The notes beneath the pieces were generated by a model. The model saw nothing but the letters and a program-made list of their open reading frames with translations. It was not told where the DNA came from and searched no databases. This document shows, in pieces, positions 12,965 to 64,000 of a DNA stretch of 64,000 nt. Origin of the DNA: a virus (Duplodnaviria; Caudoviricetes). How positions within the stretch are numbered: position 1 is the first letter of the stretch; the number at the start of each line of letters is the position of its first letter. The stretch covers positions 2,266 to 66,265 of IMG/VR virus record IMGVR_UViG_3300024284_000001; one strand, given 5' to 3'. Both the position numbers and the translations under genes were made by a program.

Positions 12965-14449
12965 CTAAGCCACACGCCGAGGCCGTCCACGGAAATCGAT
13001 CGGTCGATCCTGGGCGGCATTGGCATATTTCTTCTGGGCCATCTGGTACTGAAGGGCGCGGAAGGTGGGGTCCTTGGCCGTGACGAAGTTCCTGATCTTC
13101 TCCTCCACGGGCTCGTCGATCTCGCGCGGTACCGACTTAATGCCGTAGCGGGCGGAATCGACTCCGTCGTCGCCGTCCACCTTGAGGTAGTCGTCCGGGT
13201 CATCAGGATCGATGACCATCTCGGGGAGCCTCTTGATGAGGTTGAAGCAGCGCGGATTGATCTTCCACTGTCCCTGCGTGAGGAGCTGGTGCATCAGCCG
13301 GGCACCGCCCTTGCGGTCATTGTCGGCGGGTACGGCGGCGGGAATCCCACTCTTGGCGAAGACCTCGTTCATCTCAATGGCGATCGTGCGGGGCGAGGTC
13401 TTCTTGGCGAAGGCGTCGGGGCCGAGGAAGACGGTTCGGATCTTCTCGTCACCCGTCAGCTCGACGATCCGCTGGGCGAGCTGGTAGGGCTCGAGGTTGT
13501 TGACGATGAGTTCGCGGTAGGTGTAGGTCACGCCGCTGACGTAGACGTGCCAGTGGATCGCCGCGTCGTGGGTGAAGCCCCAGTCTCCGCTGATCCAGCG
13601 ATAGGCCCAGGGCGAGAACTCGAGGGTCTTGGGGTCGTAGGTGTCCTTGTCCTCGTGGAAGTTCTCGAAGTAGGCGCCAGAGATCGCGTCCCAGGAACCC
13701 TCGAGAAGCTGAGCCTTGAGCTTCTCGTTCATCGCGTTCAGGTTTTCGAGGTAGAAGGGGTCGTTCTCGAGAAGGTGATGGTTGTCGGTAGTCTTCGCCG
13801 GGATGAACGCGTAGTTCTCGGGCTTATAGGCCCGCACCGGCATACCAGCCGGAGGCTCTTTGGTTACAAAGAGAGCTTTACACCAACTTACTCCTCTCCC
13901 TTGAGGATTTGTGGCGGCCACCATATTCGGGTCCCGCCATTCGCTCTTGATGCTCGAGCGGTTACGGGTAGTGAGGAACTCCCACATCCGGTAATGAGGG
14001 AGGGTGTCCGTCACCTCGTCGATCGCGATGACCCCGTACTCGTCCGTCTTGTAGTCGAGAAGGGCCGTCTCGTTCTCAACATGCCCGAATCGGAGGGTGG
14101 ACCCGTTGAAGAAGGTCGCCGTCTGGTGCTGGACGTTGAAGGTGAAAACCTTGTTGTCGGGGTTGCCGATCGTCGCCAAAAAGCGGTCCCGGATGATCTG
14201 CTGAAGGTCCGGATTGTTTTTACGGAGGAAGAGGGCCTTCCAGCCGGGCGTCGCTAGGCACTGGGCCACGACTTCCTGAACTAGAGTTACGGTTTTCCCT
14301 CCGCCCAAAGCGCCTCCGTAAAGCCTGTACCTGCAAGGGTTTGTGTGGAATTCGATCTGCTTCGGGAGGGGTTTGTACCAGGTCTGCCCAACCTGCACGG
14401 GCGCCTGTTTCGCTTGGCGGCTACGGGCGGACGCTCGCGGTTTCGCCAT
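12965..14449 (-). CDS. terL: Terminase large subunit
   Basis: Q motif (PLPKQIEFH), Walker A GGALGGGKT, Walker B IAIDE, ATNP coupling motif, RNase H-like SGDWG and DDGVDSARY. Confidence 0.95.
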   Translation of the reverse strand: MAKPRASARSRQAKQAPVQVGQTWYKPLPKQIEFHTNPCRYRLYGGALGGGKTVTLVQEVVAQCLATPGWKALFLRKNNPDLQQIIRDRFLATIGNPDNKVFTFNVQHQTATFFNGSTLRFGHVENETALLDYKTDEYGVIAIDEVTDTLPHYRMWEFLTTRNRSSIKSEWRDPNMVAATNPQGRGVSWCKALFVTKEPPAGMPVRAYKPENYAFIPAKTTDNHHLLENDPFYLENLNAMNEKLKAQLLEGSWDAISGAYFENFHEDKDTYDPKTLEFSPWAYRWISGDWGFTHDAAIHWHVYVSGVTYTYRELIVNNLEPYQLAQRIVELTGDEKIRTVFLGPDAFAKKTSPRTIAIEMNEVFAKSGIPAAVPADNDRKGGARLMHQLLTQGQWKINPRCFNLIKRLPEMVIDPDDPDDYLKVDGDDGVDSARYGIKSVPREIDEPVEEKIRNFVTAKDPTFRALQYQMAQKKYANAAQDRPIDFRGRPRRVA

Positions 14450-14507
14450 TCTGAGCGGCAAGGGGATCAGCTTTTCGACGAGCCCGCAAGAAAAGTCGGT
14501 GTTTTAC

Positions 14508-16154: not shown

Positions 16155-16429
16155 TGAGTCGCTCCATCTGGAAATACCCCGTCAGCATCGAGGACGAGTT
16201 CGAAGTCCAGATGCCCTGCGGTAGCCAAATCCTCTCGGTCCAGGTCCAGGGAGACCAGCCGTTCTTCTGGGCCAGCGTCGAGAAGGACAATGACCTCCGC
16301 AAGAGACGATTCGCCGTGCGTGGGACCGGGCATCCAACAGACGACGTCGCTACCTCCGCGTTCATCGGAACCTTCCAGCTCCACGCCGGCCAACTTGTTT
16401 TCCACCTCTTCGATCGAGGGCCAGTATGA
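16154..16429 (+). CDS. Conserved small phage protein
   Basis: IWKYP...ILSVQVQ...W...RRF...GTGH...GTFQL...LVFHLF pattern familiar from many phages. Confidence 0.7.
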   Translation: MSRSIWKYPVSIEDEFEVQMPCGSQILSVQVQGDQPFFWASVEKDNDLRKRRFAVRGTGHPTDDVATSAFIGTFQLHAGQLVFHLFDRGPV

Positions 16430-17400
16430 CCCCCGCCGAATCCCTAGACGCCGCCATCACCACCCACTTCGAACAACAGCGCCACATCCGCGCCCAGTAC
16501 ACGAACAGGGTTTCCCAGGCCGGGATGGCGCTCGAATGCCAGCGCAGAGCCCAATGGGCGCGCACCCACTGGCAAGACGCCACTCTCCCCGACGTCTCAT
16601 TGCAACGCAGATACACCCTCGGGAACATCTTCGAGCCGGCCATCGTCAAGATGCTGACGGACTCCGGAGTCCCAGTCATCCAACAGCAGCGAGACCTTTC
16701 GTGGCCCGAGTTCCAGCTCACCGGGCACATCGACGGCGTGGTCCTGATCGAGAACGAACAGATCGTCCTCGAGATCAAGTCCGCTTCCCGCTTCTCTTTC
16801 GAGAAGATCCGGAAGGTCGGGAACGCCACCGGCCTCCTGATGGATCCTCGGGCCTACATCCGAGGCTACGTCGTTCAGGCTGCGCTCTACGCCCTCCTGA
16901 TGGGGCTGAAGCGAGCGCTTGTGGTGTTTTGCAGCAAGGACTCCGGCGAGACACACACGATCGAGGTGAGCCTCGACGAACCGGCGGTCCTGGACGTCGC
17001 CGAGAAAGCTCTGAAGCGGTTCGAAAAGATCAACGCCGCCATCGCCGCCAAGGAAGACCTGCCGCCGGAGCCCGGTCCCTATTGCAAGGAATGCCCCTTC
17101 CTGGGGCTCTGCGCGCCGCCTCTGTCCTTCGCCTCGGCCGGCGGGATCGTGGAGGACCCGGCGGCGGAACTGGACCTCACGCGGCGTGCCGAGCTTCTCC
17201 CCGCCCATCAAGAGTTCGAGGCGATCGACGAACGGATGAAGAAGCGGTTCGACCAGGCTGGGTCCTTCATCCTCGGCAAATGGACGGTGGTCGTCCGGAC
17301 TCAGGAGAAGACTTACTACGATGTGCCGAAGGACCAGAAGGAAAGATTTGCGAAGAAACGTTTCGACCTGAGGCGGGAGTATGTGGCCCCATCTGAGTAA
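16426..17400 (+). CDS. Cas4-like PD-(D/E)XK exonuclease
   Basis: GHIDG...LEIKS, QAALY, and 1+3 Cys pattern (ECQR ... CKECPFLGLC). Confidence 0.85.
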   Translation: MTPAESLDAAITTHFEQQRHIRAQYTNRVSQAGMALECQRRAQWARTHWQDATLPDVSLQRRYTLGNIFEPAIVKMLTDSGVPVIQQQRDLSWPEFQLTGHIDGVVLIENEQIVLEIKSASRFSFEKIRKVGNATGLLMDPRAYIRGYVVQAALYALLMGLKRALVVFCSKDSGETHTIEVSLDEPAVLDVAEKALKRFEKINAAIAAKEDLPPEPGPYCKECPFLGLCAPPLSFASAGGIVEDPAAELDLTRRAELLPAHQEFEAIDERMKKRFDQAGSFILGKWTVVVRTQEKTYYDVPKDQKERFAKKRFDLRREYVAPSE

Positions 17401-42681: not shown

Positions 42682-43041
42682 TTAGCCTCCAAACAGCTCC
42701 TCGACCGACACCGGCTCCTCCTCCCTCTCGCGCCTCTCCGCGTTGATGACCGACGTGATCGCCAGCCCGAGCGCCAGGTTAGGTAGGTACCGGCCACGCC
42801 GAAGCTCGTAAACACACTCGACGGAGGCCCCCACCCTCCGCGCCAACTTCGCCAAGGTCATCCCGCTGAAAGCCCGAGCCGCCTCCAGCTCCACGGCAAG
42901 ACGTGTGGCGTGGCACCCCCTGGGCGGGTTCTTGGCACGCGTCAGGCCCTCTGGATCCTTCTTCTCCGGTGGCTGGTACGGTCGTCTGGGTGGGGCTGGT
43001 TGGGGTTCGGGCTCGAGCTGGGTCCGCATGAATGGCTTCAT
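42682..43041 (-). CDS. XRE-family HTH regulator
   Basis: MTLAKLARRVGAS...VYEL.RGRYLPNL.L...I; divergent from the Ro60 operon; start uncertain. Confidence 0.8.
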   Translation of the reverse strand: MKPFMRTQLEPEPQPAPPRRPYQPPEKKDPEGLTRAKNPPRGCHATRLAVELEAARAFSGMTLAKLARRVGASVECVYELRRGRYLPNLALGLAITSVINAERREREEEPVSVEELFGG

Positions 43042-43088
43042 GCCCCGAGAGTCTACGCGAATCTACGCAACGCATCTCGGTGTTTTTC

Positions 43089-43117
43089 TTGACAAACGCA
43101 TTTCCACGCCCTACGTT
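43089..43117 (+). promoter_or_regulatory. Promoter of the Ro60-Y RNA operon, operator family member
   Basis: TTGACA-AACGCATTTCCACGCCC-TACGTT; AAAGGAGG SD at about 43130. Confidence 0.8.
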
Positions 43118-43141
43118 GAGGTCCGCTACAAAGGAGGCGAC

Positions 43142-44746
43142 GTGAGCTACCTGAAGAACGCGACGGCCACCGCTCGGGTGCCTCAGTCCGAACCGCTGGA
43201 CGAGACCCAGGTCGTGAACTCGGCCGGAGGCTACGTCTACCAGCTCGACTGCTGGAAGGCTCTGGACCGCTTCCTGATCCTCGGAACGGAGGGCGGGACA
43301 TACTACGCCTCCGAGCGAAAGCTCACCGGAGAGAGCCTCAAGAACGTCGAGGCGTGCCTTCGGAAGGACGCGGCCCGGACGATCGAACAGATCGCCTCGC
43401 TCTCCGAGGCTGGCCGTGCGCCCAAGAACGACCCGGCGCTCTATGCCCTGGCGATGGCCGCCTCCTCAAAGGACTCCGAGGTCCGTCGCCTGGCGCTCGC
43501 GGCCCTCCCTCGTGTGGCCCGGATCGGTACCCACCTCTTCACCTTCGTCGAGTTCCTGAAGGGAAAGAGGGGATGGTCTCGAGGGCTGCGTCGGGGGATC
43601 GCCGGCTACTATGCGGCGAAGAGCGACAAGCAGCTCGTCTACGACCTCGTGAAGTACCAGTCTCGAGGCGGATGGTCTCACCGGGACGTCCTGCGCCTCG
43701 CCCACCCCACGGCCAAGGGCGTCAGGAACGACGCCTTCCGCTGGGTGGTCAAGGGCACGGAGGGCAAGGAGCTTCCGGACGAGGGGACAGTGACCGAACC
43801 TCTCGACCGCCTCTGGGCCTTCGAGAAGGCGAAGATCGAGAAGGACCCCAAGGAGATCGCCCGGCTCGTCCGGACCTACGACCTCCCTCGGGAGTGCGTG
43901 CCGACCGAGGCGCTGAACGATGTCGGTGTGTGGACGGCTCTTCTCGAGCGGATGCCGATGACGGCGATGATCCGGAACCTCGGGAAGATGACCGAGATCG
44001 GGCTCGTCGGACCCCTGTCCGAGGGTACGAAGCACGTCGTCTCGACGCTCTCGAATCGAGAGGCGCTTCGGAAGAGCCGCGTCCACCCGATCCAGATCCT
44101 CGGCGCTCTCCTGACCTACGGGCAGGGGCACGGCGTCAAGGGGAAGCTCTCGTGGACTCCGGTCAAGCAGGTGACGGATGCCCTGGACGACGCCTTCTAC
44201 GCGGCCTTCGACAACGTCGAGCCGACCGGGAAGCGGTACTACTTGGGCCTCGACGTCTCGGGCTCGATGGGGTGGGGGACGATCGCCGGGATGCCGGGGC
44301 TGACCCCCGCCATGGGCGCTGCGGCGATGGCCCTTCTGATCGCCAGGACCGAGAAGCAGTATGCGATCTTCGGGTTCGCCGGGGAGATGAGGGAGATCCC
44401 GATCTCTCCGAAGGACTCACTGTCGGCGGCCATGGATCGGACGCGTGGACTGACCTTCGGTTCGACCGACTGCGCGCTGCCGATGCTTCACGCGACGCTA
44501 CAGAAGATCCCGGCCGACGTCTTCGTCGTCATCACGGACAACGAGACCTGGGCCGGAAAGGTCCATCCCTCCGTGGCGCTCAACCACTTCCGGAAGGCCA
44601 CGGGAATCCCGGCGAAGGAGATCGTGATTGGGATGACGGCCACGCAATTCACGGTGGCAGATCAGAACGATCCCCTCTGCATCGACGTCGTAGGCTTTGA
44701 CTCAAACGTTCCCACGGTCATCGCGGACTTCGCTAAGAACTGGTAG
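43142..44746 (+). CDS. rsr: Ro60 / Rsr (TROVE plus vWA) RNA-binding protein
   Basis: NSAGGYVY...LDRFLILGTEGGTYY, GRAPKND, VARIGTHLF, KY.SR.GWSHRD.LRLAHP, MIRNLGKM, vWA MIDAS LDVSGSM, GSTDCALPM, TDNETW, GFD. GTG 43142 follows a strong SD. Confidence 0.97.
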   Translation: MSYLKNATATARVPQSEPLDETQVVNSAGGYVYQLDCWKALDRFLILGTEGGTYYASERKLTGESLKNVEACLRKDAARTIEQIASLSEAGRAPKNDPALYALAMAASSKDSEVRRLALAALPRVARIGTHLFTFVEFLKGKRGWSRGLRRGIAGYYAAKSDKQLVYDLVKYQSRGGWSHRDVLRLAHPTAKGVRNDAFRWVVKGTEGKELPDEGTVTEPLDRLWAFEKAKIEKDPKEIARLVRTYDLPRECVPTEALNDVGVWTALLERMPMTAMIRNLGKMTEIGLVGPLSEGTKHVVSTLSNREALRKSRVHPIQILGALLTYGQGHGVKGKLSWTPVKQVTDALDDAFYAAFDNVEPTGKRYYLGLDVSGSMGWGTIAGMPGLTPAMGAAAMALLIARTEKQYAIFGFAGEMREIPISPKDSLSAAMDRTRGLTFGSTDCALPMLHATLQKIPADVFVVITDNETWAGKVHPSVALNHFRKATGIPAKEIVIGMTATQFTVADQNDPLCIDVVGFDSNVPTVIADFAKNW

Positions 44747-52100: not shown

Positions 52101-55100
52101 AAGTTGGCGCCCGGCTCGTCGATGACCTTGCCCCCATGCCACCAGGCGCGGACCCGCGCCCCGAGATTCCCGGCGAAGCCCCGCTCTAGCTGCTCTCCCG
52201 CGTGCATGGCCCCGACCGAGCCAGGCGCCGGGCGGGCCTCACCTACTCCGGCGTATTCGGGTTCTCCGTCTCGAGCTGAGTCGGGTCCTCCGCCTTCTTT
52301 CTCGGCGCGTTTCGGAGCAGGATGTTCGCCGGGTTCCGCGCCAGCTTCCTCGGTCCCCCCGCGAGGTTCCTTCCCTCGTCGTTCTTCGGGTAGTCCTTCG
52401 TCGGTCGGGCGTTGCGGTCGTTCTGCGGGAGGCTGTTCCTCGCGAGTAGGTTCTTCCTCCCCTTGTAGCTCCGTAGCGCCTGCTGCGCGTGGCTCACCGC
52501 CCCCTCGTTCACTTTGATCCCGAATTGGCTGGGCTTTAGCATGGGCCTCCTTTTCCTGACGGCGTGAAATCTCACGCGCCGCCGCCTCGAGCATCGTATC
52601 GACGTCCGGCGGTCTCTTCTTCGAGAGGAAGCCGCTCTCCTTCGGACGACCGAGAGCATCCACGACCTCGGCCGCTTCCCTCGTGAGTTCCGAGATCACG
52701 TCGGCGCCGTTACGCCCAGACGCCTCGGCATCGGTGTACGCGGCACGTAGGTAGGCAGCAGCATCTGAGACGTCGGTCTTGTCCGAGGCCGCCTCGTCCA
52801 GGGCCTCACCCAGCGGAACGCGGTGACGTTCGCCCAGGTCAGCCTTTCTCGAGAGTTCGGTGAGGGTGGGCTCGATCGCCTTGCGAGCGTTCTCGAAGGC
52901 TAGACGGCGCGGCTCGCGTAGGGACTGTGTCCCTTGTTCTTGCGGAGCGTTCCCCTCGCCCTCATGCTCTTGAACATTTCGACCTCGGCCAATCTCTTCT
53001 TCGCCGCCTCGAGCGACAGGCCGGGCTTCGACAGGTTCTTGCCCGACTCCGAGGTCACCTTGAATCCGCCTTTGGTCCTGACGATCATTCGGCGCCTCCG
53101 CTACTCCGGGTACTTCTTCGGCCGGAGCGATTCGTTCAGGGGCGGGGCCACGTTCCCTCTCGGTCCCGGCGGGCGTTCCTCGTGGCGGAGCTTCGGCGGG
53201 TGGTGCGCCGGAGGGAAGTACCCGCGTCGCTTCGGGTTCGGGTCCAGCTCGAATCTCACCTTGCTCCCCTTCGGGAGCGACTTCACGAATGCCGCGAAGT
53301 TCTCCACGGGCTCGCTCTCCGGCGGCTTCTCTGGCGGCCTTGTGCTCGTGGAGGGCGCGCTCGGCGGCGGCGATGGCATTTTTGGACCCATTGACGTTCT
53401 CTCCTACGCCGAAGCTGAAGTCGGCCCCGGTGAAAATCTTGGTCGTCCCGTCCGGATAGTCAACGGCAATTCGGCTCTTTTTCAGAATGCCCCTTGCCGT
53501 TTCGAGTCCCGTTCGGAGGCTCTCGGCGTCCTTCCCTCGGTAGAGGAACTCATCTCCCTTGTCGTGGTAGACCTCGAGCCCCGCCTGCTGGGCCGCCCTA
53601 GCCTTCGCCGCCAGCATGGCGTCTCCAGCGGCGTATCCATGGGTGTCATTTAGGGCTTTGAGACCGTCCGAGTCCGACATCGCGTAGGCCCCCGCCTCAC
53701 CCTGAGCCTCGGCGATGTCGAAGGCGTTCCGGTTCTGAATCCCAGCCGTCTTGGAGGTTTCGCTCTCAAGGACACGGCGAACGGCTGGGTGCCCCTCCGG
53801 AAGGTTGACCTCCTTGGCGATGGCCGCCCGACGTTCGGCGATGCGCCGGTCCTCACCATCCGGAATCTCCTCCGGGGGCTCCACCATGCCCCGCCGTTCG
53901 TAGATGGGCTCGGTGCCCGGCTGCCGGATCTCGTAGCGCCCCCTGGCCGGCCCTCCTCGGAGGGCTTCCTCGGGCACTGGGACGAGCGGTGGCGGCTCCG
54001 GAGGCGCCTCAGCGCCGGGAATAGGCGGCACGGGCGCAGGCTGAGGGGCGGGCTCGTCCGGCGGAGCGTTGATCTGGCGGTTCAGTTCGGCCACCACCGA
54101 CTCCACCGCCTGCCGCTTGGTCATGGTCTCCGGGTCGTAGAAGACCATCCCCTTGCCGGTGTCGGCCATCGCGAGGTTCGACGCCTCGGGAGGGGGCGTC
54201 TCGCCGGGAGGGACGAAGATGGGCGTCGATGCTTGCTTGGTTTCAGGCGTAACTGCCGTAGGTTCAGTAGGTTGAGGCGTCGACTCGGAAACGGGTTCGG
54301 CCTTGGGCTCGCTCGCTCGAGCCGCCCCTTCTTTGGCCCCCGCCGCATGGGCCGCCGCCATGGCCGTCATCACCGTGGAGACGGCAGCCCCACCCACGAG
54401 CTTCTCGGCCTCCTCGTAGTTGCCGGCGGCAATGGCCTCGGCCGCAGCCGGGATCTCGTTCTTGGCGAGGTCGTACCCCATCTTCCCGGCGAAGTATGCC
54501 GAGAGCGCTCTCCCCGCCACGCCCGGAAGCCCCGCCGCTCCGGCGATGATCCCGACATTGGCGGGGGTGATCTGAGAGGCCAGGGCCTCCGTGGCCCCCG
54601 TCGCCACTCGAGCCGCTCCCGTGGCGATCTTCCCGGCCTGCGGGATGACGGCCTGGGCCACGGGGTCCGGGATGTTTCGAAGGAGGGCTTGGGCCTGGGG
54701 ACTCTGGATCGCTTGATCGTAGGCCCCCTCGGCGGCCTTGAGTCCAGGCTCGAGCCCGGTCTCCGCCCCCCGGCCGGCGATGTCGCCGATCAGCGGCGCG
54801 GCTTGGAGAGCGGCCCTCCCGCCAGGGATGATGGGCGCTACGGCCTTGGCGATGGGGGATTCGGCTACGTCTCGAGCGATGACCGGAGCGTTTCTCGAGA
54901 TCGAATCGGCGGCTCCGGCAAAGAGCGGACGGCTCGCGGCGTTCCCGAGTTCCTCGAGACTTCTGGGTTGCTCCTTCTCGCGGTTCTGCTGACGGAGAAG
55001 CTCGCCGAGGCGGGCCTTCGCCTTCTCGGCTACCGAGCCGGGGCCGTACGAGGGAGGGCTCGGGCGGAAGCCAGCCTGCTCCGAGGCGGTTATCACTCGC

Positions 55101-55588
55101 CCGCTCTTGCTATCGAGCGTCGCCCCACCGGGCTGCGGGATGAATCGATTCGGGTGGTCGTCCGCCTTGAATTCGGAGGGCCAGTGCCCCGTCTCGTCGG
55201 GACCCTGAACGCCGGCCCTGAACGCCGCCCGGTAGTCGTAGTGGTGCTCGGGTGCGTCGGGGTTCGGATTCAACCCCGTCTTCTGGGCGTTGGCCTTGTA
55301 CCAAGACTGGAATCCGGCCTCGTCCTGGCTCGGCGCCCCCACCGCCGGCTTGGCGATCTGGGGGTCCGGCTCCTCATCTGGCCGAGCGGCGAGCGGCGTG
55401 ATGGGCTTTGGACCGAGGAGCTTGTCGTCGCGGTTCTCGTTCGGTGTAGGGGGCGGGACGGCTTGGAAGGACTTGGCCGGGGCCGGAGTCTTGTGCTGAC
55501 GGATGACCTCGGCGAACTTCTCTTTCGGGAAGTCGTCAGGGAACTCGTACTCGTTCCCGGTCTCCTCGTCAACGACGGTCTGCGGCAT
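49103..55588 (-). CDS. Giant internal virion/DNA-ejection (polyvalent-type) protein with GGDEF-like domain
   Basis: 2161 aa, last gene of the virion module; disordered P/E-rich segments, GGDEF-like domain at about 53400-53765, large helical C-terminal half. Confidence 0.8.
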   Translation of the reverse strand: MPQTVVDEETGNEYEFPDDFPKEKFAEVIRQHKTPAPAKSFQAVPPPTPNENRDDKLLGPKPITPLAARPDEEPDPQIAKPAVGAPSQDEAGFQSWYKANAQKTGLNPNPDAPEHHYDYRAAFRAGVQGPDETGHWPSEFKADDHPNRFIPQPGGATLDSKSGRVITASEQAGFRPSPPSYGPGSVAEKAKARLGELLRQQNREKEQPRSLEELGNAASRPLFAGAADSISRNAPVIARDVAESPIAKAVAPIIPGGRAALQAAPLIGDIAGRGAETGLEPGLKAAEGAYDQAIQSPQAQALLRNIPDPVAQAVIPQAGKIATGAARVATGATEALASQITPANVGIIAGAAGLPGVAGRALSAYFAGKMGYDLAKNEIPAAAEAIAAGNYEEAEKLVGGAAVSTVMTAMAAAHAAGAKEGAARASEPKAEPVSESTPQPTEPTAVTPETKQASTPIFVPPGETPPPEASNLAMADTGKGMVFYDPETMTKRQAVESVVAELNRQINAPPDEPAPQPAPVPPIPGAEAPPEPPPLVPVPEEALRGGPARGRYEIRQPGTEPIYERRGMVEPPEEIPDGEDRRIAERRAAIAKEVNLPEGHPAVRRVLESETSKTAGIQNRNAFDIAEAQGEAGAYAMSDSDGLKALNDTHGYAAGDAMLAAKARAAQQAGLEVYHDKGDEFLYRGKDAESLRTGLETARGILKKSRIAVDYPDGTTKIFTGADFSFGVGENVNGSKNAIAAAERALHEHKAAREAAGERARGELRGIREVAPEGEQGEIRAGPEPEATRVLPSGAPPAEAPPRGTPAGTERERGPAPERIAPAEEVPGVAEAPNDRQDQRRIQGDLGVGQEPVEARPVARGGEEEIGRGRNVQEHEGEGNAPQEQGTQSLREPRRLAFENARKAIEPTLTELSRKADLGERHRVPLGEALDEAASDKTDVSDAAAYLRAAYTDAEASGRNGADVISELTREAAEVVDALGRPKESGFLSKKRPPDVDTMLEAAAREISRRQEKEAHAKAQPIRDQSERGGGEPRAAGATELQGEEEPTREEQPPAERPQRPTDEGLPEERRGKEPRGGTEEAGAEPGEHPAPKRAEKEGGGPDSARDGEPEYAGVGEARPAPGSVGAMHAGEQLERGFAGNLGARVRAWWHGGKVIDEPGANFSKIDALKTKVSGYRLNALAKLSEEAARLGRFTAGAHGRAGVLTNMFRAAIQNDLRSLAEKDGHSNLNYEQDKFVRYLIDHNQRSLVDRWDEMAKDVRGMSDDELTKKIEGDAFETPLQALNTKAPFLIEHEISRGKRKGTKVKSPADLTGDLEALADDPGGARDFLAETFEKARDAAKNGLDPDFEGKKGTDYETTPEVGRMLKTYDDTLGQTFRRAHSLNEGDFRKVDHYFPLQAYEDLTAKKGFDPEFVGGPGVRSSPYKIGPNPRNFFATGLAESYDPSMKRFRSALAQALRKNGGAGFVKSLIDSGAGELWEPKTPGDTPPTSLTMDGEEVRAKSFPIGTDHLIDKNGQLKKIKGGARIVLPEQLAKEIAPILEPREFKEAVWRNVAQKLTTLALGGPTDATIHVANLFSTLVTMTPFISESAAGKTAELAGGHWAKGIITLAKLAAQDPTGADLPRLRELAENGSIPNSYGSHFVLTSDAKAAGAERGLFAVPGDRTASGKRIISPIDIRQFGSLIYDPKYGGDIRARLLIDKAGEQLAKTYGHEWTPEARFNWNRQLGNYVFDLEGDIERGAKGSGLAPFATAGMQGLRNGLRGMFGFQHLPLGEAGEGFKGQAFNRYRAALVWQTAVSGVVLWSLANKLYRDKWPWEEGAKLFQIKIRDDDRRPIKDDDSLGRKALKTAVHAIYGTSVTRPAYFNFGMPMNMQMRGLRASGLKATAEGLMAGRSAKSTGERAVVDSINAMAAPFLGPPIRFASVALMGREPYLERLSLGTQISPKFREADEKRPKTLLEAPLQNLVTAAANTNPIMRRLKETKEQDLPITRTAADAILPQLFKGPYPTTGRWADRHLSDAEEILRGYAADHPFGLAKPDEETRKRLDTVRDLQNQLAEGADRKEIVKQVAQLEKEGKIKPNDRAKILLGTLDSTTREMKESHAPIDVKMEAYEAGTRDEKKKWYPLLLKSYESSLKNQTPDGRALLIEKWKKINAEKRAMR
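52243..52542 (-). CDS. Nested +1-frame gene C (99 aa) inside the giant protein gene
   Basis: AAAAGGAGG-ccc-ATG; MLKPSQFGIKVNEGAVSHAQQ... Confidence 0.55.
   Translation of the reverse strand: MLKPSQFGIKVNEGAVSHAQQALRSYKGRKNLLARNSLPQNDRNARPTKDYPKNDEGRNLAGGPRKLARNPANILLRNAPRKKAEDPTQLETENPNTPE
52900..53088 (-). CDS. Nested +1-frame gene B (62 aa), small basic phage protein
   Basis: GGAGG-7nt-ATG, 12 nt after the stop of nested gene A; MIVRTKGGFKVTSESGKNLSKPGLSLEAAKKRLAEVEMFK. Confidence 0.7.
   Translation of the reverse strand: MIVRTKGGFKVTSESGKNLSKPGLSLEAAKKRLAEVEMFKSMRARGTLRKNKGHSPYASRAV
53101..53391 (-). CDS. Nested +1-frame gene A (96 aa)
   Basis: AGGAG-9nt-ATG; Pro-rich with a central FAAFVKSLPKGSKVRFELDP segment. 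Confidence 0.5.
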   Translation of the reverse strand: MGPKMPSPPPSAPSTSTRPPEKPPESEPVENFAAFVKSLPKGSKVRFELDPNPKRRGYFPPAHHPPKLRHEERPPGPRGNVAPPLNESLRPKKYPE

Positions 55589-60511: not shown

Positions 60512-63154
60512 CTAGGCCATCCCCCTGAATGTTGAGTGCGGGGCCGGCTGGGTGTACGGCACGCAGCGCTTCAGCTTGAAGTAGGCGGTGGTCGAGCCCG
60601 TGACTCCGAACCGGAAGCCAAGCCTCGTCGCGATGGCGTTGAGCTGCCACTCGAGATCGTGGAGCGCGGGGTCGGCGAGCGTCTGGTTCCGGAGCGCGAC
60701 GTTTGAATCGTTCGGGTAGGTAATGCTCGAGGCGAGCGTTCCAGAGCCCCTGGCGTTGGCCGAAAGGAAGCCGTAGGCCGAGCGTCCAGACTGCCGCCCG
60801 AGAGGCGCCGTCTCGTAGAAGGAAGTGATGGCCGTATTCCCGCCGCCCGACGCCTGATCGGAGGTCGTCGTCCCGTCGTAGTTCTGGACGCGGCCGGTCC
60901 CGTCGTTCAGGCCGACGAGGACTTGGGGCACCCCGATGTCGTAGTACGGCGTGGACGTCGGGTCCCGGACGGTCCCAACCGACGTCGAAACGTTCCAGAT
61001 GGTCCAGGCCCGGCCGTTACCGCCGGAGTCCAGCGGATTGCCGAATCCGTTCGTGTAGTCCATCACCAGGAGCTTGTCGAGGGCGGTGATGACAACTGAG
61101 TAGTTCCCGTTCGCCGGGCTGAAGACGCGATCCAGGGTCAGGGTCGTGGTCGTGGCATCGACGATCGTGTAGGTCACTAGGGGCTCGGCCGGAAGCGTGA
61201 GGATCGCGCCCTGCCAGTTGACGCTGAAGCCGGTTCCGGTGACGGCAGTCGAGCCATTCGTGAACGCAGCGGTCGTCGTGGTGGAGTGTGGCACTCCGAC
61301 GAGAACTCGCCGGTTCGTGATGTCCACCGTCGCCCAGGCGTATTCGCCAGCCACAGCCCACGCAACAGCATCCCACGTCGGCTGGATCTCCTGACTGATC
61401 TTCTCGGGCTGACCGCCGGAGAATAGGTAAAGCCCGGTCTGGGAGACGATCACCAGCCAGTCCTCGCCTCGGGCAACGCCATAACGAGAGGGCGTTCCGA
61501 TGTTGCCGGAGACGAGTTCAAGATTCCAGTCGGCGGGTTCGTTGTAGCCCGTGTCGCGCGTCACCCAGAACGAGCGTTCTTTGAAAATATAGAGGTTGTC
61601 GCGGAACTCGAAGCAGCAGCGGATGGCCTGCCCGTCTTCGCTGCCAAGGGAGACGACGCCCTGGAGGGGGTCAATCGATTCGGGGAGCCCAGCCCGCGAG
61701 ATCAGGACATCGGTTGGGTTCGTGACGTCACCAAGTCTCTGGGCGTAGAGGGCGTCAATCTGAACGTATTCACCGCCGGTCGTCGCGTTATTGAGATCCA
61801 GCGTTAGGCTTGTCGGCGTCGTCGTGTTCGTCCAGGTGAACCCGATTAGGCACCAGCGCGTCGAGAAGCCGGCCGCAGCCACGGAGAAGGTCTTCGTGCT
61901 ACCGAAAGCCGTGATCCGAAGCGTTCCCGCCGCCATGCCGGCGGATCGCCGCACGCGGGCCAGAATCGTCACGTTGTTGCCGAAGATCGTCGGGTCGATC
62001 AACCCTAGGCTGACGATTGCACCCCGTGCCCCAACGGCGGTGGGGGCGATCTGGTAGACCTGGCCTGCTGCGCCCGCTGCCGTGACGACCGACCCATCGG
62101 CGGCAGGCGCACCCCAACCGCCCGGAGTCGTCCCGACCAATCCGCCGTCGAAGCTCAGGTTCCGCACCGTGAAGCCGGGATTGATGTAGAGCGTGGTGTC
62201 GGTCAGGGCGCCCCATCCCACGAGACGGTCTCTGTAACGGCAGAAGCCAGCGACAGGCGGCATCTCGATTTGATTCACGAGTGGCAGGAGCGGAATGCCG
62301 GAGACTAGATGTATGTCGGTGAAGTCGAAGGTCGCGGTAGTCGTTGTGTTGTCGTTGATGAACGTCGAGGTGACGGAATCGTTGAGCGCGAAATAGGGAC
62401 CTGCCAGGGAATCGCCGCCGACCGGAGTGAAGAAAATGATCCGACGAATCGTACCGGGTGGTCCGAGGGGGATGTTATTGCAAACGATCTTCTGATTGAG
62501 GACGACGACGATGTTCGCGACGAAGATCCCGAGCGGTGCATCGGTTCGATAGCCGTGCCGCGTTTCGAATACGACCGTCGCGTAGTGCGACCCGTTGTCA
62601 ACAGTCCCCGCTGCGCCGGCCGCTAGCGTTGGCCCGATGCCCGGCCCCTGCGGCGCGAATTGTTCGAACTGGCCGCCGATTAGATCGTACTTTCGGGGCT
62701 GAGACATCCCGAAGCGACCATCCGAGAGAGCGATGGCTTCGAACTGCCCGAAGGTCGCCGAGTGACCGCAGAGTCGCTTCCGACCATTGGTCACGGTAGA
62801 GGCCAGGGCAACAGTCGCGATGGCGTAGGCGTAGCCGAGTTCAGCATCAACCGACGTACCGTTCGCGTAGAGCTTGGCTCCGAGAGTTCCGCCGTCGTCG
62901 GCCAGGACCAGACTCGTTTCGGTCTTGGCGAAGTCATCCCGGATCGCCGCCTTGATGTAGGACGGATTCCCGAGCGTATTCGTCGTCAGGTAATTCCTGA
63001 AGCCGCCTCGAGATCGAACCATGCCGGGGGAGAACTCGACGTCCTGGCAATTCGGCGACACCCCAGGCGGGAGATCGTTCCGATCCGCCTGGGTCACGAG
63101 GCCGCCGAAAGTATCGACGGCCAGCGCGTCGTCAAATCCGTCCGTGACGGGCAT
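60512..63154 (-). CDS. Tail nozzle / tubular protein B (P22 gp10-like) with inserted domains
   Basis: 880 aa beta-rich; DLPPGVSPNCQDV N-terminus and propeller-type repeats (YIFKERSFW, IGTPSRYGV, KISQEIQPTW). Confidence 0.75.
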   Translation of the reverse strand: MPVTDGFDDALAVDTFGGLVTQADRNDLPPGVSPNCQDVEFSPGMVRSRGGFRNYLTTNTLGNPSYIKAAIRDDFAKTETSLVLADDGGTLGAKLYANGTSVDAELGYAYAIATVALASTVTNGRKRLCGHSATFGQFEAIALSDGRFGMSQPRKYDLIGGQFEQFAPQGPGIGPTLAAGAAGTVDNGSHYATVVFETRHGYRTDAPLGIFVANIVVVLNQKIVCNNIPLGPPGTIRRIIFFTPVGGDSLAGPYFALNDSVTSTFINDNTTTTATFDFTDIHLVSGIPLLPLVNQIEMPPVAGFCRYRDRLVGWGALTDTTLYINPGFTVRNLSFDGGLVGTTPGGWGAPAADGSVVTAAGAAGQVYQIAPTAVGARGAIVSLGLIDPTIFGNNVTILARVRRSAGMAAGTLRITAFGSTKTFSVAAAGFSTRWCLIGFTWTNTTTPTSLTLDLNNATTGGEYVQIDALYAQRLGDVTNPTDVLISRAGLPESIDPLQGVVSLGSEDGQAIRCCFEFRDNLYIFKERSFWVTRDTGYNEPADWNLELVSGNIGTPSRYGVARGEDWLVIVSQTGLYLFSGGQPEKISQEIQPTWDAVAWAVAGEYAWATVDITNRRVLVGVPHSTTTTAAFTNGSTAVTGTGFSVNWQGAILTLPAEPLVTYTIVDATTTTLTLDRVFSPANGNYSVVITALDKLLVMDYTNGFGNPLDSGGNGRAWTIWNVSTSVGTVRDPTSTPYYDIGVPQVLVGLNDGTGRVQNYDGTTTSDQASGGGNTAITSFYETAPLGRQSGRSAYGFLSANARGSGTLASSITYPNDSNVALRNQTLADPALHDLEWQLNAIATRLGFRFGVTGSTTAYFKLKRCVPYTQPAPHSTFRGMA

Positions 63155-63478: not shown

Positions 63479-64000
63479 CTAATAGGGGATGCCGAACCGA
63501 CGCCGGTAAGCGCGGGCCGGACGTTCTTGCTTGACGTGAGTGTCGAGGTTGATGACGGTCGAGAGCTTGCGGTTCCCTTCCGCCTTCAGTGTTTCGGAAA
63601 GGCCGGCGTCGAAGCTGATGGCGTATCCAGCGGCGGTCAGGTAGCCGAGTGGCCCGTTGATGTCGTCGATCGGAACCGCGTCCCCGTAGTCGAGAAGTGC
63701 CGTGACGTCGGCGTAGTAGTCGATCCGGATGGTGACGGCCTGCGTCGAACCCACGAAGTAGAGGGCGGCGTTTCGCCACTCCCACCAGATGAGGTTCGTG
63801 GACTGGGGCTCGTTCTGGGGAAGGGCGTCCCGGACCTTGACCATTTGGACGAAGTCCAGGTACGTGCCGCTCGTGAGCCGCTCCCAGAGGCGAATGGGCT
63901 CGAGGAAGTCCGTAGGGAGCGCGGGACTGGACGAGGAGGTAAGAGCCGTCTGCCCGACCGTGAGGTTGACGTCCGCCCGCATTCGAAGGCGGGAGACGCC
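63479..64000 (-). CDS. Head-tail adaptor / tail tubular protein A (5' truncated by window end)
   Basis: Frame is open to the window edge; LPTDFLEPIRLWER...W.WR...LYF...IDY pattern; precedes the nozzle. Confidence 0.65.
   Translation of the reverse strand, partial: GVSRLRMRADVNLTVGQTALTSSSSPALPTDFLEPIRLWERLTSGTYLDFVQMVKVRDALPQNEPQSTNLIWWEWRNAALYFVGSTQAVTIRIDYYADVTALLDYGDAVPIDDINGPLGYLTAAGYAISFDAGLSETLKAEGNRKLSTVINLDTHVKQERPARAYRRRFGIPY

What the first reader, a model, noticed from the sequence alone, without database searches (positions are those of the whole stretch)
53400..53765. GGDEF-like nucleotidyl cyclase domain (KGDEF) inside the injected giant virion protein
Seen: TAGIQNRNAFD...MSDSDGLKALNDTHGYAAGDAML...YHDKGDEF...DFSFGVG aligns with the GGDEF consensus (LTGL.NR, D.D.FK.iND..GH..GD..L, R.GGDEF, S.G). 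The metal and substrate Asp/Asn/Glu residues are kept, the first Gly is replaced by Lys, and there is no RxxD I-site. Known: GGDEF domains make c-di-GMP (Hypr variants make cGAMP), and GGDEF domains occur in phage polyvalent proteins. Inference: a co-injected enzyme could make or bind cyclic dinucleotides at entry, manipulating host c-di-GMP physiology or jamming CBASS-type signalling.
Basis: partly seen in the sequence, partly recalled or inferred. Interest (0 to 1): 0.75.

Follow-up and report, generated by a model that had tools for sequence, protein, structure and literature searches.

The report
K-GDEF cyclase domain in giant phage protein
A 2161-residue protein encoded at the end of the virion-gene block of an uncultured 66-kb phage really does contain an intact-looking c-di-GMP-synthase-type (GGDEF) domain of an uncharacterised "KGDEF" subfamily, shared with Acidobacteriota and their phages; GGDEF cargo on such proteins was predicted in 2017 and, in the papers I searched, has not been tested.

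Summary
Window 53400-53765 (minus strand) encodes residues 609-729 of a 2161-aa ORF (49103-55588). Residues about 609-767 form a GGDEF-fold domain: AF2 pLDDT 92, best PDB match Z 17.4, and all 50 listed PDB matches are GGDEF domains.

The Pfam score is just under the cut-off (23.4 vs 23.8 bits). The homologue profile hits solved diguanylate cyclases at E 1.5e-9.

The motif YH[DE]KGDEF marks a clade and is not a one-off: K occurs in 141 of 184 relatives. The residues that bind metal, guanine and phosphate in diguanylate cyclases are at least 95% conserved. There is no RxxD I-site.

This domain is the only segment shared between otherwise unrelated giant proteins. About 30% of those carry an adjacent 2H/Acb1-like phosphoesterase, which is absent here.

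The genomic hits closest to the query lie almost all in Acidobacteriota MAGs, mostly as standalone 170-280-aa genes. No GenBank phage or PLSDB plasmid matches.

The likeliest reading is a feedback-insensitive, GTP-using cyclase carried by a polyvalent virion-module protein. Enzyme activity, product and packaging are all untested.

GGDEF in polyvalent proteins was catalogued by Iyer et al. 2017. This scan has met the theme in more than 20 other genomes, and two first-reader notes record the KGDEF signature on other DNA.

The K-GDEF subfamily is a new variant of a known kind, of moderate interest.

The parts
49103..55588 (-). Giant ORF of 2161 aa (P0001), the last gene of a co-directional virion-gene block. 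It has long Ala/Pro/Glu/Gly-rich linkers (residues about 160-600 and 770-1190) around the cyclase domain.
   Evidence: A 3-nt gap separates it from the upstream 506-aa gene, and no promoter-like site lies inside.
53288..53764 (-). GGDEF-fold (K-GDEF) domain, residues 609-767.
53546..53569 (-). Signature hairpin YHDKGDEF (residues 674-681). H675 replaces the usual Arg and K677 replaces the first Gly. G678, D679, E680 and F681 are kept.
   Evidence: Among 156 full-length homologous domains: G 155, D 156, E 156, F 152, K 124, H 148. Across all 184 relatives K occurs in 141.
53645..53677 (-). SDSDGLKALND (residues 638-648). D639 and D641 align with the metal-binding DxD strand, K644 with the conserved Lys, and N647 with the guanine-contacting Asn of diguanylate cyclases.
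   Evidence: Residue-level alignments to 4yme, 3ign and 4wxo. Conservation: D639 155/156, D641 150, K644 149, N647 156.
53621..53638 (-). GYAAGD (residues 651-656), where Y replaces the usual His. D656 aligns with the second guanine-specificity residue (Asp in cyclases, Ser in Hypr enzymes).
   Evidence: In the family this position is D in 95 and N in 57 of 156.
53330..53365 (-). Last helix AERALHEHKAAR (residues 742-753). It has the same spacing as the canonical A-D-x-A-L-Y-x-A-K motif. K750 is invariant (156/156) and R753 is 154/156; they are the probable phosphate-binding pair.
   Evidence: The equivalence rests on motif spacing and was not checked on coordinates.
53288..53308 (-). Family-specific tail RGELRGI (residues 761-767) directly after the domain. 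Its function is unknown.
   Evidence: R761 149/156 and G762 152/156.
53375..53395 (-). Seven-residue insertion VNGSKNA (residues 732-738), nearly unique to this protein (gapped in 153-155 of the 156 aligned domains).
49106..51571 (-). C-terminal module of about 820 aa, mostly helical in a low-confidence model. It is shared only with the extreme C-termini of four other giant proteins: P0187 (which carries ART-PolyVal and was not among the retrieved KGDEF relatives), P0130, P0087 and P0143.
60512..63154 (-). 880-aa protein matching a virion structural protein family (phrog_3287), upstream in the same gene block. Its homologues lie about 5-8 kb upstream of the giant KGDEF gene in five other viral contigs.
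63479..64000 (-). SU10-type adaptor protein (partial at the window end), marking a short-tailed-phage tail module.
   Evidence: 26.8 bits against a cut-off of 27.

Best explanation
P0001 is a phage polyvalent protein. It has a conserved C-terminal chassis, long flexible linkers and one swappable effector module. It is encoded as the last gene of the virion-gene block of a 66-kb short-tailed phage with direct terminal repeats, whose host is probably an acidobacterium (Terriglobales).

The effector module is a catalytically competent GGDEF-family nucleotidyl cyclase of a K-GDEF subfamily. Two copies of the domain, each holding Mg-GTP, would pair antiparallel and make c-di-GMP. No I-site is present, so output would not be feedback-limited. 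If the protein is packaged and ejected with the DNA, as proposed for polyvalent proteins, the enzyme would raise this host second messenger from the first minutes of infection.

Shown here: fold, homology, residue conservation, modularity, gene position and host association. Inferred: catalysis, product, dimerisation, packaging and the physiological target.
For: - Fold and homology.
- Catalytic residues: every position that in characterised cyclases binds metal (D639, D679), guanine (N647, D656) or phosphate (K750, R753), or acts in catalysis (K644, E680), is present. All but D656 are at least 95% conserved in 156 homologues; D656 is D or N.
- First-Gly tolerance: diguanylate cyclases with A/SGDEF motifs are active (PMC3974145; PMC13725321 class II).
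- Selection on the domain: it is the only significant similarity between P0001 and its nearest relative P0004 (62% over 177 aa, E 7e-56, nothing else). Its position along the giant proteins varies from residue 30 to about 1900.
- Polyvalent context: relatives carry ART-PolyVal, 2H, SNF2, RelA_SpoT and RadC domains. The C-terminal module is shared with an ART-PolyVal protein.
- Virion-block position: there is a 3-nt gap to the upstream gene and no internal promoter. An SU10-type adaptor match (26.8 bits, just under the cut-off of 27) and a phrog_3287 virion protein lie upstream. The same 880-aa homologue precedes the giant KGDEF gene in five IMG/VR contigs.
- Prior prediction: the concept is stated in PMC5512222.
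Against: - No biochemical or proteomic data exist for any member; no cultured phage or plasmid carries the domain.
- The protein itself scores just under the Pfam cut-off.
- Lys at the first Gly, His for the Arg before the motif, Tyr for His in GH..GD and a shortened first helix are all untested changes near the active site.
- An archaeal MAG protein with a GGDKGDEF-type motif showed no cyclase phenotype in heterologous assays (PMC13725321). It is probably not a close relative.
- About 35% of the family has Asn at the base-specificity Asp.
- The phage encodes no c-di-GMP receptor or phosphodiesterase.
- Packaging is inferred from gene order only. The C-terminal module could not be modelled (pLDDT 41).
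Confidence: 0.5

Rival explanations
1. The fold is the same and the enzyme is active, but the product is not c-di-GMP. It could be another cyclic or linear di- or oligonucleotide. In this reading the product is a counter-defence tool, for example spoofing or out-competing host immune nucleotide signals. In many relatives it would act together with the adjacent 2H/Acb1-like phosphoesterase that degrades such signals.
For: - Clade-wide changes lie next to the active site: K for G, H for R, Y for H and a shortened helix.
- The specificity position splits into D and N.
- A 2H/Acb1-like domain lies within 100 residues of KGDEF in 28 giant proteins; one protein has RelA_SpoT-2H-KGDEF in a row.
- Palm-domain cyclases can make 2',3'-c-di-AMP decoys, and base choice is set by Ser/Asn at a homologous position (PMC12657218).
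Against: - This protein keeps both guanine-recognition residues (N647, D656), not the Ser of Hypr or adenine-using enzymes.
- It has no 2H domain, and the phage has none elsewhere.
- The domain matches no PADLOC model.
Confidence: 0.2
2. It is an active cyclase but is not delivered in the virion. The giant protein would be made late and act inside the already infected cell, for example in superinfection exclusion or envelope or exopolysaccharide remodelling. Alternatively it is an external tail component.
For: - Packaging is not shown.
- The gene is the last of the late block, where tail fibres also sit in many short-tailed phages.
- No PHROG or Pfam virion-protein family matches P0001 outside the cyclase domain.
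Against: - The architecture (effector domain, disordered linkers, helical C-terminal module with a hydrophobic segment) and the shared chassis with an ART-PolyVal protein fit cargo-carrying internal proteins rather than fibres.
- The two preceding genes of about 500 aa plus a giant gene resemble the three-gene ejection-protein set of T7-like phages. This is established knowledge of gp14/15/16 (PMC8605104 abstract), not tested here.
Confidence: 0.15
3. It is a non-catalytic GGDEF domain that only binds a nucleotide (a sponge or sensor) or serves as a structural or oligomerisation module.
For: - Many degenerate GGDEF domains are receptors.
- The first Gly of the signature is lost and the Pfam score is sub-threshold.
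Against: - Receptor-type GGDEF domains usually bind through the RxxD I-site, which is absent.
- The catalytic Asp/Glu, metal, base and phosphate ligands are 95-100% conserved across 156 homologues that are 40-60% identical. Purifying selection on catalysis would give this pattern.
Confidence: 0.12
4. It is a chance resemblance or low-complexity artefact, with no real domain.
For: The Pfam whole-protein score on P0001 is only 17.2 bits.
Against: Profile, fold and structure-search evidence all agree. There are 326 representative clusters at E up to 1e-10.
Confidence: 0.01

Closest known systems
GGDEF-bearing polyvalent proteins of phages and prophages (Iyer, Burroughs, Anand, de Souza, Aravind 2017, PMC5512222)
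   Same: Both are giant multidomain proteins in a phage late or structural gene context, with a GGDEF nucleotidyltransferase module. Relatives carry other polyvalent-protein domains: ART-PolyVal, 2H phosphoesterase, RelA_SpoT, SNF2 and RadC. The proposed role is also the same: a cyclic-nucleotide signal made by the invader early in infection.
   Different: - That paper calls GGDEF 'not very widespread' in polyvalent proteins. Here the K-GDEF type alone has 326 representative clusters at E up to 1e-10, most of the listed ones in proteins of 1000 aa or more.
- The signature is YH[DE]KGDEF, not GGDEF.
- The genomic hits closest to the query lie in Acidobacteriota MAGs.
- P0001 carries no other recognisable polyvalent-protein domain, and its C-terminal module matches no Pfam LPD family.
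Canonical diguanylate cyclases (PleD, WspR, DgcZ, SadC, Marinobacter 3ign)
   Same: The fold is the same (Z 15-17, rmsd about 2-3 A over 135-150 residues). The wide-turn N-R motif, the DxD strand, K, N, D, the G-D-E-F hairpin and the A-[DE]-x-x-L-x-x-x-K last helix are all present.
   Different: - Lys replaces the first Gly, His replaces the Arg before the motif, and Tyr replaces His in GH..GD.
- The first helix is about 8-11 residues shorter.
- There is no RxxD I-site and no sensor or receiver domain.
- A conserved RGELRGI tail is added.
- Sequence identity is only 18-28%.
Class II GGDEF enzymes with altered signatures (AGDEF VCA0965, SGDEF enzymes, Hypr GGDEF cGAMP synthases)
   Same: They are precedents that the first Gly can be replaced without loss of activity, and that one residue in the GH..GD segment sets base specificity.
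   Different: Lys at the first position has not been assayed. The specificity residue here is Asp (Asn in a third of the family), not the Ser of Hypr enzymes.
Standalone phage GGDEF proteins (Bordetella phage CN1, Bacillus phages G and SP-15; BFVD hits)
   Same: They are phage-encoded GGDEF-fold proteins (TM 0.66-0.72 normalised to the query).
   Different: They are small free proteins with 19-33% identity to this domain. They are not part of a giant virion-module protein and do not belong to the K-GDEF clade by sequence search (no tblastn hit in 50,697 phage records).
T7 gp14/gp15/gp16-type ejection proteins of short-tailed phages
   Same: The gene sits at the end of the tail and internal-protein block. 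A run of two mid-sized genes and one very large gene is present. Helical content is predicted, though at low confidence.
   Different: No sequence or fold similarity could be shown. The structure prediction failed and there is no lytic transglycosylase domain.

Membership tests
GGDEF domain family (Pfam PF00990; RRM-like palm fold) | Sequence match to the family model at or above the curated cut-off | tested here: inconclusive
   P0001's domain scores 22.7-23.4 bits against a cut-off of 23.8. 22 of 23 homologues match at E<0.01, the best at 1e-13. Homologues P0006, P0019, P0009 and P0143 exceed the cut-off. The family profile against PDB diguanylate cyclases gives E 1.5e-9.
GGDEF domain family (Pfam PF00990; RRM-like palm fold) | GGDEF fold (five-stranded sheet with the signature beta-hairpin, flanked by helices) | tested here: met
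   AF2 pLDDT 92. All 50 listed Foldseek matches are GGDEF domains at probability 1.00. VIA-align gives Z 17.4, rmsd 2.4 A over 143 residues.
Catalytically active diguanylate cyclase (EC 2.7.7.65) | GG[D/E]EF (or A/SGDEF) signature | tested here: not met
   The motif is K-G-D-E-F (residues 677-681). The second Gly and D-E-F are kept. Lys at position 1 has no assayed precedent in the papers searched.
Catalytically active diguanylate cyclase (EC 2.7.7.65) | Metal-binding acidic residues (PleD D327 and E370 equivalents) and catalytic Glu and Lys | tested here: met
   D639, D679, E680 and K644 are present and 149-156 of 156 conserved.
Catalytically active diguanylate cyclase (EC 2.7.7.65) | Guanine-recognition Asn and Asp (PleD N335 and D344 equivalents) | tested here: met
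   N647 is 156/156. D656 is present in this protein; across the family it is D in 95 and N in 57.
Catalytically active diguanylate cyclase (EC 2.7.7.65) | Phosphate-binding Lys/Arg in the last helix | tested here: inconclusive
   K750 (156/156) has canonical spacing in A-E-x-x-L-x-x-x-K. R753 (154/156) sits at +3 rather than +4. The equivalence rests on motif spacing and was not checked on coordinates.
Catalytically active diguanylate cyclase (EC 2.7.7.65) | Conversion of 2 GTP to c-di-GMP by a homodimer | not testable with these tools
   This needs an enzyme assay. No multimer prediction tool was available.
Product-inhibited diguanylate cyclases (I-site) | RxxD motif five residues upstream of the signature | tested here: not met
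   The four aligned positions are Q-A-G-L, and E-A-G-L in the family consensus.
Hypr GGDEF (cGAMP synthases) | Ser replacing the specificity Asp in the GH..GD segment | tested here: not met
   The residue is Asp656. Ser occurs in 1 of the 200 family sequences in the tally.
Polyvalent proteins (Iyer et al. 2017) | Large multidomain protein of a phage or conjugative element combining effector domains from the polyvalent repertoire | tested here: inconclusive
   P0001 has one recognised repertoire domain (GGDEF) plus uncharacterised modules. Its C-terminal module is shared with an ART-PolyVal protein. Its GGDEF domain is shared with proteins bearing ART-PolyVal, 2H, SNF2, RelA_SpoT, RadC and LPD38. 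The LPD38 lead for P0001 itself was not confirmed (hhalign probability 0.5%).
Polyvalent proteins (Iyer et al. 2017) | Linkage to phage late or packaging genes | tested here: met
   It is the last gene of the same-strand block with the SU10-type adaptor match and the phrog_3287 virion protein. The synteny is conserved in five IMG/VR contigs, and terL lies next to the giant gene in L087, L097 and L099.
Polyvalent proteins (Iyer et al. 2017) | Packaging in the virion and transfer into the host with the DNA | not testable with these tools
   This needs virion proteomics and a transfer assay.

The most novel reading that the evidence does not exclude
The K-GDEF clade may make a nucleotide signal other than canonical c-di-GMP. 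The D-type and N-type members might differ in base use. Acidobacteria would use this signal themselves through small sensor-less K-GDEF enzymes, some encoded next to a receiver/sigma-like regulator. Their phages would inject the same synthase, often fused to an Acb1-like 2H phosphodiesterase. That pairing would let the phage erase host immune nucleotides while supplying a counterfeit 'all is well' or regulatory signal, for instance to defeat decoy-nucleotide guard systems of the Panoptes type.
Probability: 0.1. Interest if true: 0.8.

Novelty: new variant of a known kind. Interest (0 to 1): 0.42.

Why it matters
If the domain is active and delivered, it would be a virus carrying a host second-messenger synthase into the cell with its DNA. 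Iyer et al. predicted this in 2017, and I found no experimental test in the searched literature.

The K-GDEF subfamily offers a clean experimental handle. The domain is small (about 160 aa), models with high confidence and is strongly conserved. It has a defined active-site variant (Lys for Gly, His for Arg) and a natural D/N split at the base-specificity position.

It also links soil Acidobacteriota, whose phages and signalling are little studied, to their viruses through a shared enzyme module. The frequent fusion to an Acb1-like phosphodiesterase suggests a combined make-and-break nucleotide warfare cassette.

Tried and rejected
- tblastn of the whole protein and of the domain against 50,697 GenBank phage records and 72,556 plasmids gave no match.
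- Pfam and PHROGs on the whole protein found nothing outside the cyclase region, apart from a meaningless HipA_2 hit at E 0.37.
- The two upstream ~500-aa proteins and other neighbours had no Pfam, PHROG or PADLOC family.
- I looked for a 2H phosphoesterase in P0001 with a profile built from relatives. There is none (score -0.7), and none elsewhere in the phage. EAL and PilZ are also absent.
- The ESM Atlas suggested LPD38/LPD39 for the C-terminal 972 aa. Pfam did not find it in P0001 or in the four proteins sharing the module, and hhalign against the LPD38 regions of P0029, P0060 and P0062 gave probability 0.5%. The lead is rejected as unsupported.
- A homologue search with the C-terminal 822 aa among proteins of 452-1439 aa found nothing.
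- AF2 of the C-terminal module with 5 sequences failed (pLDDT 41) and was not used.
- The neighbour gene of P0004's locus is not homologous to ours, so the two phages share architecture rather than genes.
- The N-terminal motif (residues 80-165) has no PDB match.
- The Hypr/cGAMP reading is rejected for this protein because the specificity residue is Asp.
- The sponge or receptor reading is disfavoured because there is no I-site and the catalytic residues are invariant.
- A search of papers for 'KGDEF' found only an unrelated archaeal GGDKGDEF protein that was inactive in vivo.
Full report
**Where it is.** The window is bases 2266-66265 of a 66,265-bp IMG/VR virus record with direct terminal repeats and 100% estimated completeness. 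The finding lies on the minus strand inside ORF 49103-55588, which is 2161 aa (P0001). Window 53400-53765 encodes residues 609-729.

**Is it a GGDEF domain?** Yes.
- Pfam GGDEF is the only meaningful hit on the whole protein (17.2 bits). On the excised domain it reaches 22.7-23.4 bits, E 6e-5 to 1e-4, just under the 23.8-bit cut-off.
- phmmer against PDB sequences returns 30 hits at E up to 10. All but two ribosomal proteins (E 0.31 and 1.2) are GGDEF-domain or diguanylate-cyclase entries or are so identified in other calls. The best is 4yme at E 8.9e-6.
- A profile of 23 homologues gives 45 PDB hits. All but three carry GGDEF or diguanylate-cyclase names or are so identified in other calls, and the best is E 1.5e-9. 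22 of those 23 homologues match PF00990, the best at 1e-13.
- AF2 with that alignment gives pLDDT 92 and pTM 0.86.
- All 50 listed Foldseek matches against the PDB are GGDEF domains at probability 1.00. VIA-align gives Z 17.4, rmsd 2.4 A over 143 residues to 3ign, and Z 14-17 for the rest of the list.

**Active-site anatomy.** Residue-level alignments to 4yme, 3ign, SadC and TpbB give the following equivalences with the canonical motifs:
- D639-x-D641 aligns with the metal-binding DxD strand.
- K644 and N647-D648 align with FK..ND.
- G651-Y652..G655-D656 aligns with GH..GD.
- H675 takes the place of the Arg before the signature.
- K677 takes the place of the first Gly, followed by G678-D679-E680-F681.
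- A742-E743..L746..K750 has exactly the spacing of A-D-x-A-L-Y-x-A-K.

I aligned 156 full-length homologous domains that are 40-64% identical to the query. Conservation counts out of 156:

| Residue | Count |
|---|---|
| D639 | 155 |
| D641 | 150 |
| K644 | 149 |
| N647 | 156 |
| D648 | 150 |
| G655 | 156 |
| G678 | 155 |
| D679 | 156 |
| E680 | 156 |
| F681 | 152 |
| K750 | 156 |
| R753 | 154 |

The position equivalent to the guanine-specificity Asp (Ser in Hypr enzymes) is Asp in 95 and Asn in 57. This split appears in giant and small proteins alike, and this protein has Asp.

The four positions where an RxxD I-site would lie read Q-A-G-L, and E-A-G-L in the family. The first helix is about 8-11 residues shorter than in canonical domains (gaps). 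A family-specific tail, RGELRGI, follows the last helix. P0001 alone has a 7-residue insertion, VNGSKNA.

**K is a clade signature.** K-GDEF occurs in 141 of 184 retrieved relatives, mostly as YHDKGDEF or YHEKGDEF. The rest have S, G, Q, H, N or A at that position, and 7 showed no recognisable x-G-[DE]-x-F signature. A FastTree, midpoint-rooted and so only indicative, places K at the base of a clade holding both the giant-protein copies and small standalone copies. A few derived branches have changed to Q, H, S or G. P0001 pairs with P0004. The all-protein search found 88 representative clusters at E up to 1e-30, 326 at up to 1e-10 and 1776 at up to 1e-3.

**What carries it.** Sixty proteins of 1270-3740 aa share the domain.
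- Their precomputed Pfam domains include 2H phosphoesterases (PF13563, PF02834), ART-PolyVal, ddrB-ParB, SNF2 and helicase modules, RelA_SpoT, RadC and LPD38. This is the polyvalent-protein repertoire of Iyer et al. 2017.
- The domain sits anywhere from residue 30 to about 1900 in these proteins.
- Between P0001 and its closest relative P0004 it is the only significant similarity (62% over 177 aa, E 7e-56). It therefore behaves as a mobile module under strong purifying selection.
- A profile built from the relatives' 2H domains finds that domain in 34 of 115 giant proteins. In 28 of the 35 proteins with a 2H hit it lies within 100 residues of the K-GDEF domain, on either side. Pfam also gives weak Acb1 matches there, and P0006 has RelA_SpoT-2H-KGDEF in a row.
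- P0001 has no 2H domain, and the phage has no 2H, EAL or PilZ gene.

**The rest of P0001.** Residues 160-600 and 770-1190 are Ala/Pro/Glu/Gly-rich linkers.
- The C-terminal ~820 aa are shared only with the extreme C-termini of four other giant proteins. These are P0187 (36% identity; it carries ART-PolyVal and DUF7178 and was not among the retrieved KGDEF relatives) and, more weakly, P0130, P0087 and P0143. This looks like a common chassis with exchangeable effectors.
- An Atlas lead to LPD38 was not confirmed. AF2 of this part failed.

**Virion context.** P0001 is the last gene of a same-strand block.
- The block runs: SU10-type adaptor match (26.8 bits, cut-off 27), a 104-aa gene, an 880-aa protein matching phrog_3287 'virion structural protein', five further genes, then genes of 510 aa and 506 aa, then P0001.
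- There are 0-3-nt gaps and no promoter-like site inside.
- In five IMG/VR contigs a homologue of the 880-aa protein lies 5-8 kb upstream of the giant K-GDEF gene on the same strand. In L087, L097 and L099 the large terminase follows the giant gene. P0004's locus has the same layout.
- This places the gene in the virion module. Packaging and ejection are inferred from the polyvalent-protein concept (PMC5512222) and by analogy with T7 gp14-16. They are not shown.

**Who else has it.** No GenBank phage and no PLSDB plasmid has it.
- In one genome per GTDB species, 97 stretches encode a relative. The 45 loci ranked highest in that table plus one further (L003-L046 and L048) are all from Acidobacteriota MAGs (Terriglobales, Acidobacteriaceae, Ca. 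Angelobacter, Ca. Sulfotelmatobacter).
- Most of these are standalone ORFs of 170-280 aa.
- About 15 loci share a four-gene cassette: an unknown Cys-rich protein, K-GDEF, a 355-aa protein with a weak receiver-domain (REC) match and a C-terminal part that I read by eye as sigma-like, and a ~130-aa protein.
- Another set sits between leuCD and LysR-leuA-leuB beside a PIN gene, which is ordinary chromosomal context.
- P0143 also has a sigma-70 region 4 match just after its K-GDEF domain.
- The subfamily is therefore shared between acidobacterial chromosomes and the giant proteins of their presumed phages. The host of this phage is probably an acidobacterium. The direction of transfer is not resolved.

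**Mechanism.** The most economical reading is an active cyclase. All ligands for two metals, the guanine base and the triphosphate are kept under strong selection.
- The first Gly is known to tolerate Ala and Ser (PMC3974145; class II in PMC13725321).
- The Asn and Asp that recognise guanine are present. The Panoptes paper (PMC12657218) restates the Ser-for-adenine, Asn-for-guanine rule for this fold.
- The domain would need to dimerise. Several copies in an ejected complex could provide that, which is an inference.
- Without an I-site it would not be product-inhibited.
- The downstream effect is unknown. Candidates are manipulation of host c-di-GMP physiology, mimicry of the host's own K-GDEF output, or interference with immune nucleotide signalling.

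I put 0.5 on the composite statement. Broken down: fold and homology about 0.97, catalysis about 0.65, c-di-GMP as product about 0.5, and virion delivery about 0.55.

**Comparison with what is known.** Iyer et al. 2017 explicitly list GGDEF among polyvalent-protein domains and propose that invasive elements use cyclic nucleotide signals. I found no experimental test in the library.

This scan has noted GGDEF domains in giant phage proteins in at least 22 other genomes. Two first-reader notes recorded the KGDEF signature on other DNA. I used these only as context.

New here:
- the definition and size of the K-GDEF clade;
- its invariant residue set and the D/N split;
- the frequent 2H adjacency;
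- the Acidobacteriota association, with standalone chromosomal copies.

Hence my rating is a new variant of a known kind, of moderate interest.

Noticed in passing
L007-L021 (for example L012:7135-10095): About 15 Acidobacteriota loci share a same-strand four-gene cassette. It comprises a ~245-aa Cys-rich unknown protein, a standalone K-GDEF protein (~210 aa), a ~355-aa protein with a weak receiver-domain (REC) match and a C-terminal part that looks sigma-like by eye, and a ~130-aa zinc-ribbon-like protein. None matches PADLOC.
   Followed up: partly
L033-L037, L041, L044 (for example L033:7850-8415): A second group of standalone K-GDEF genes (173-252 aa stop-to-stop) sits in conserved chromosomal context between leuCD and LysR-leuA-leuB, beside a PIN-domain gene. 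A small 100-120-aa ORF lies just upstream.
   Followed up: partly
P0006, P0019 and P0004 (L002:10001-20059): A 2H/Acb1-like phosphoesterase lies within 100 residues of the K-GDEF domain in 28 giant proteins. P0006 has RelA_SpoT-2H-KGDEF in a row, a possible nucleotide-signal 'make and break' cassette.
   Followed up: partly
window 53621-53623 (codon of D656) and family alignment: The base-specificity position is Asp in about 63% and Asn in about 35% of the family, in giant and small proteins alike. This may indicate two substrate or product classes.
   Followed up: partly
window 53288-53308: A conserved RGELRGI tail directly follows the domain (R761 and G762 at least 95% conserved) and has no counterpart in canonical GGDEF domains. 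It could be a linker, a processing site or a dimer contact.
   Followed up: no
window 53101-53391 (minus strand, other frame): The alternative-frame ORF reported by another finding starts inside the coding sequence of the domain's last helix. Its only cross-locus similarity that I found (L002:11679-11819) coincides exactly with the segment conserved in the main frame. That similarity therefore cannot by itself show a second gene.
   Followed up: partly
window 55169-55327 (residues 88-140): An N-terminal motif (FQSWYKANAQKTGLNPNPD..HHYDYRAAFRAG..GHWPSEF) is shared with giant protein P0135 (43% over 53 aa). It has no PDB or Pfam match.
   Followed up: partly
window 49106-51571: The C-terminal ~820-aa module occurs only at the extreme C-terminus of a few giant proteins with different effector cargo (ART-PolyVal in P0187). 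It is a candidate packaging or ejection chassis. It contains a hydrophobic segment (ALVWQTAVSGVVLWSLANKLY).
   Followed up: partly
window 42905-44746: A 613-aa protein matches phrog_850 'RNA-binding protein' (E 3e-75), the family that other notes on this genome call Ro60. A Cas4-domain exonuclease lies at 16426-17400 and the large terminase at 12965-14461.
   Followed up: no
BFVD hit A0A516M277_1: The closest viral structure-database match (30% identity, TM 0.78 normalised to the query) is the first fragment of a long unnamed viral protein. It could be a relative in a deposited virus genome, but it could not be identified with the tools at hand.
   Followed up: no
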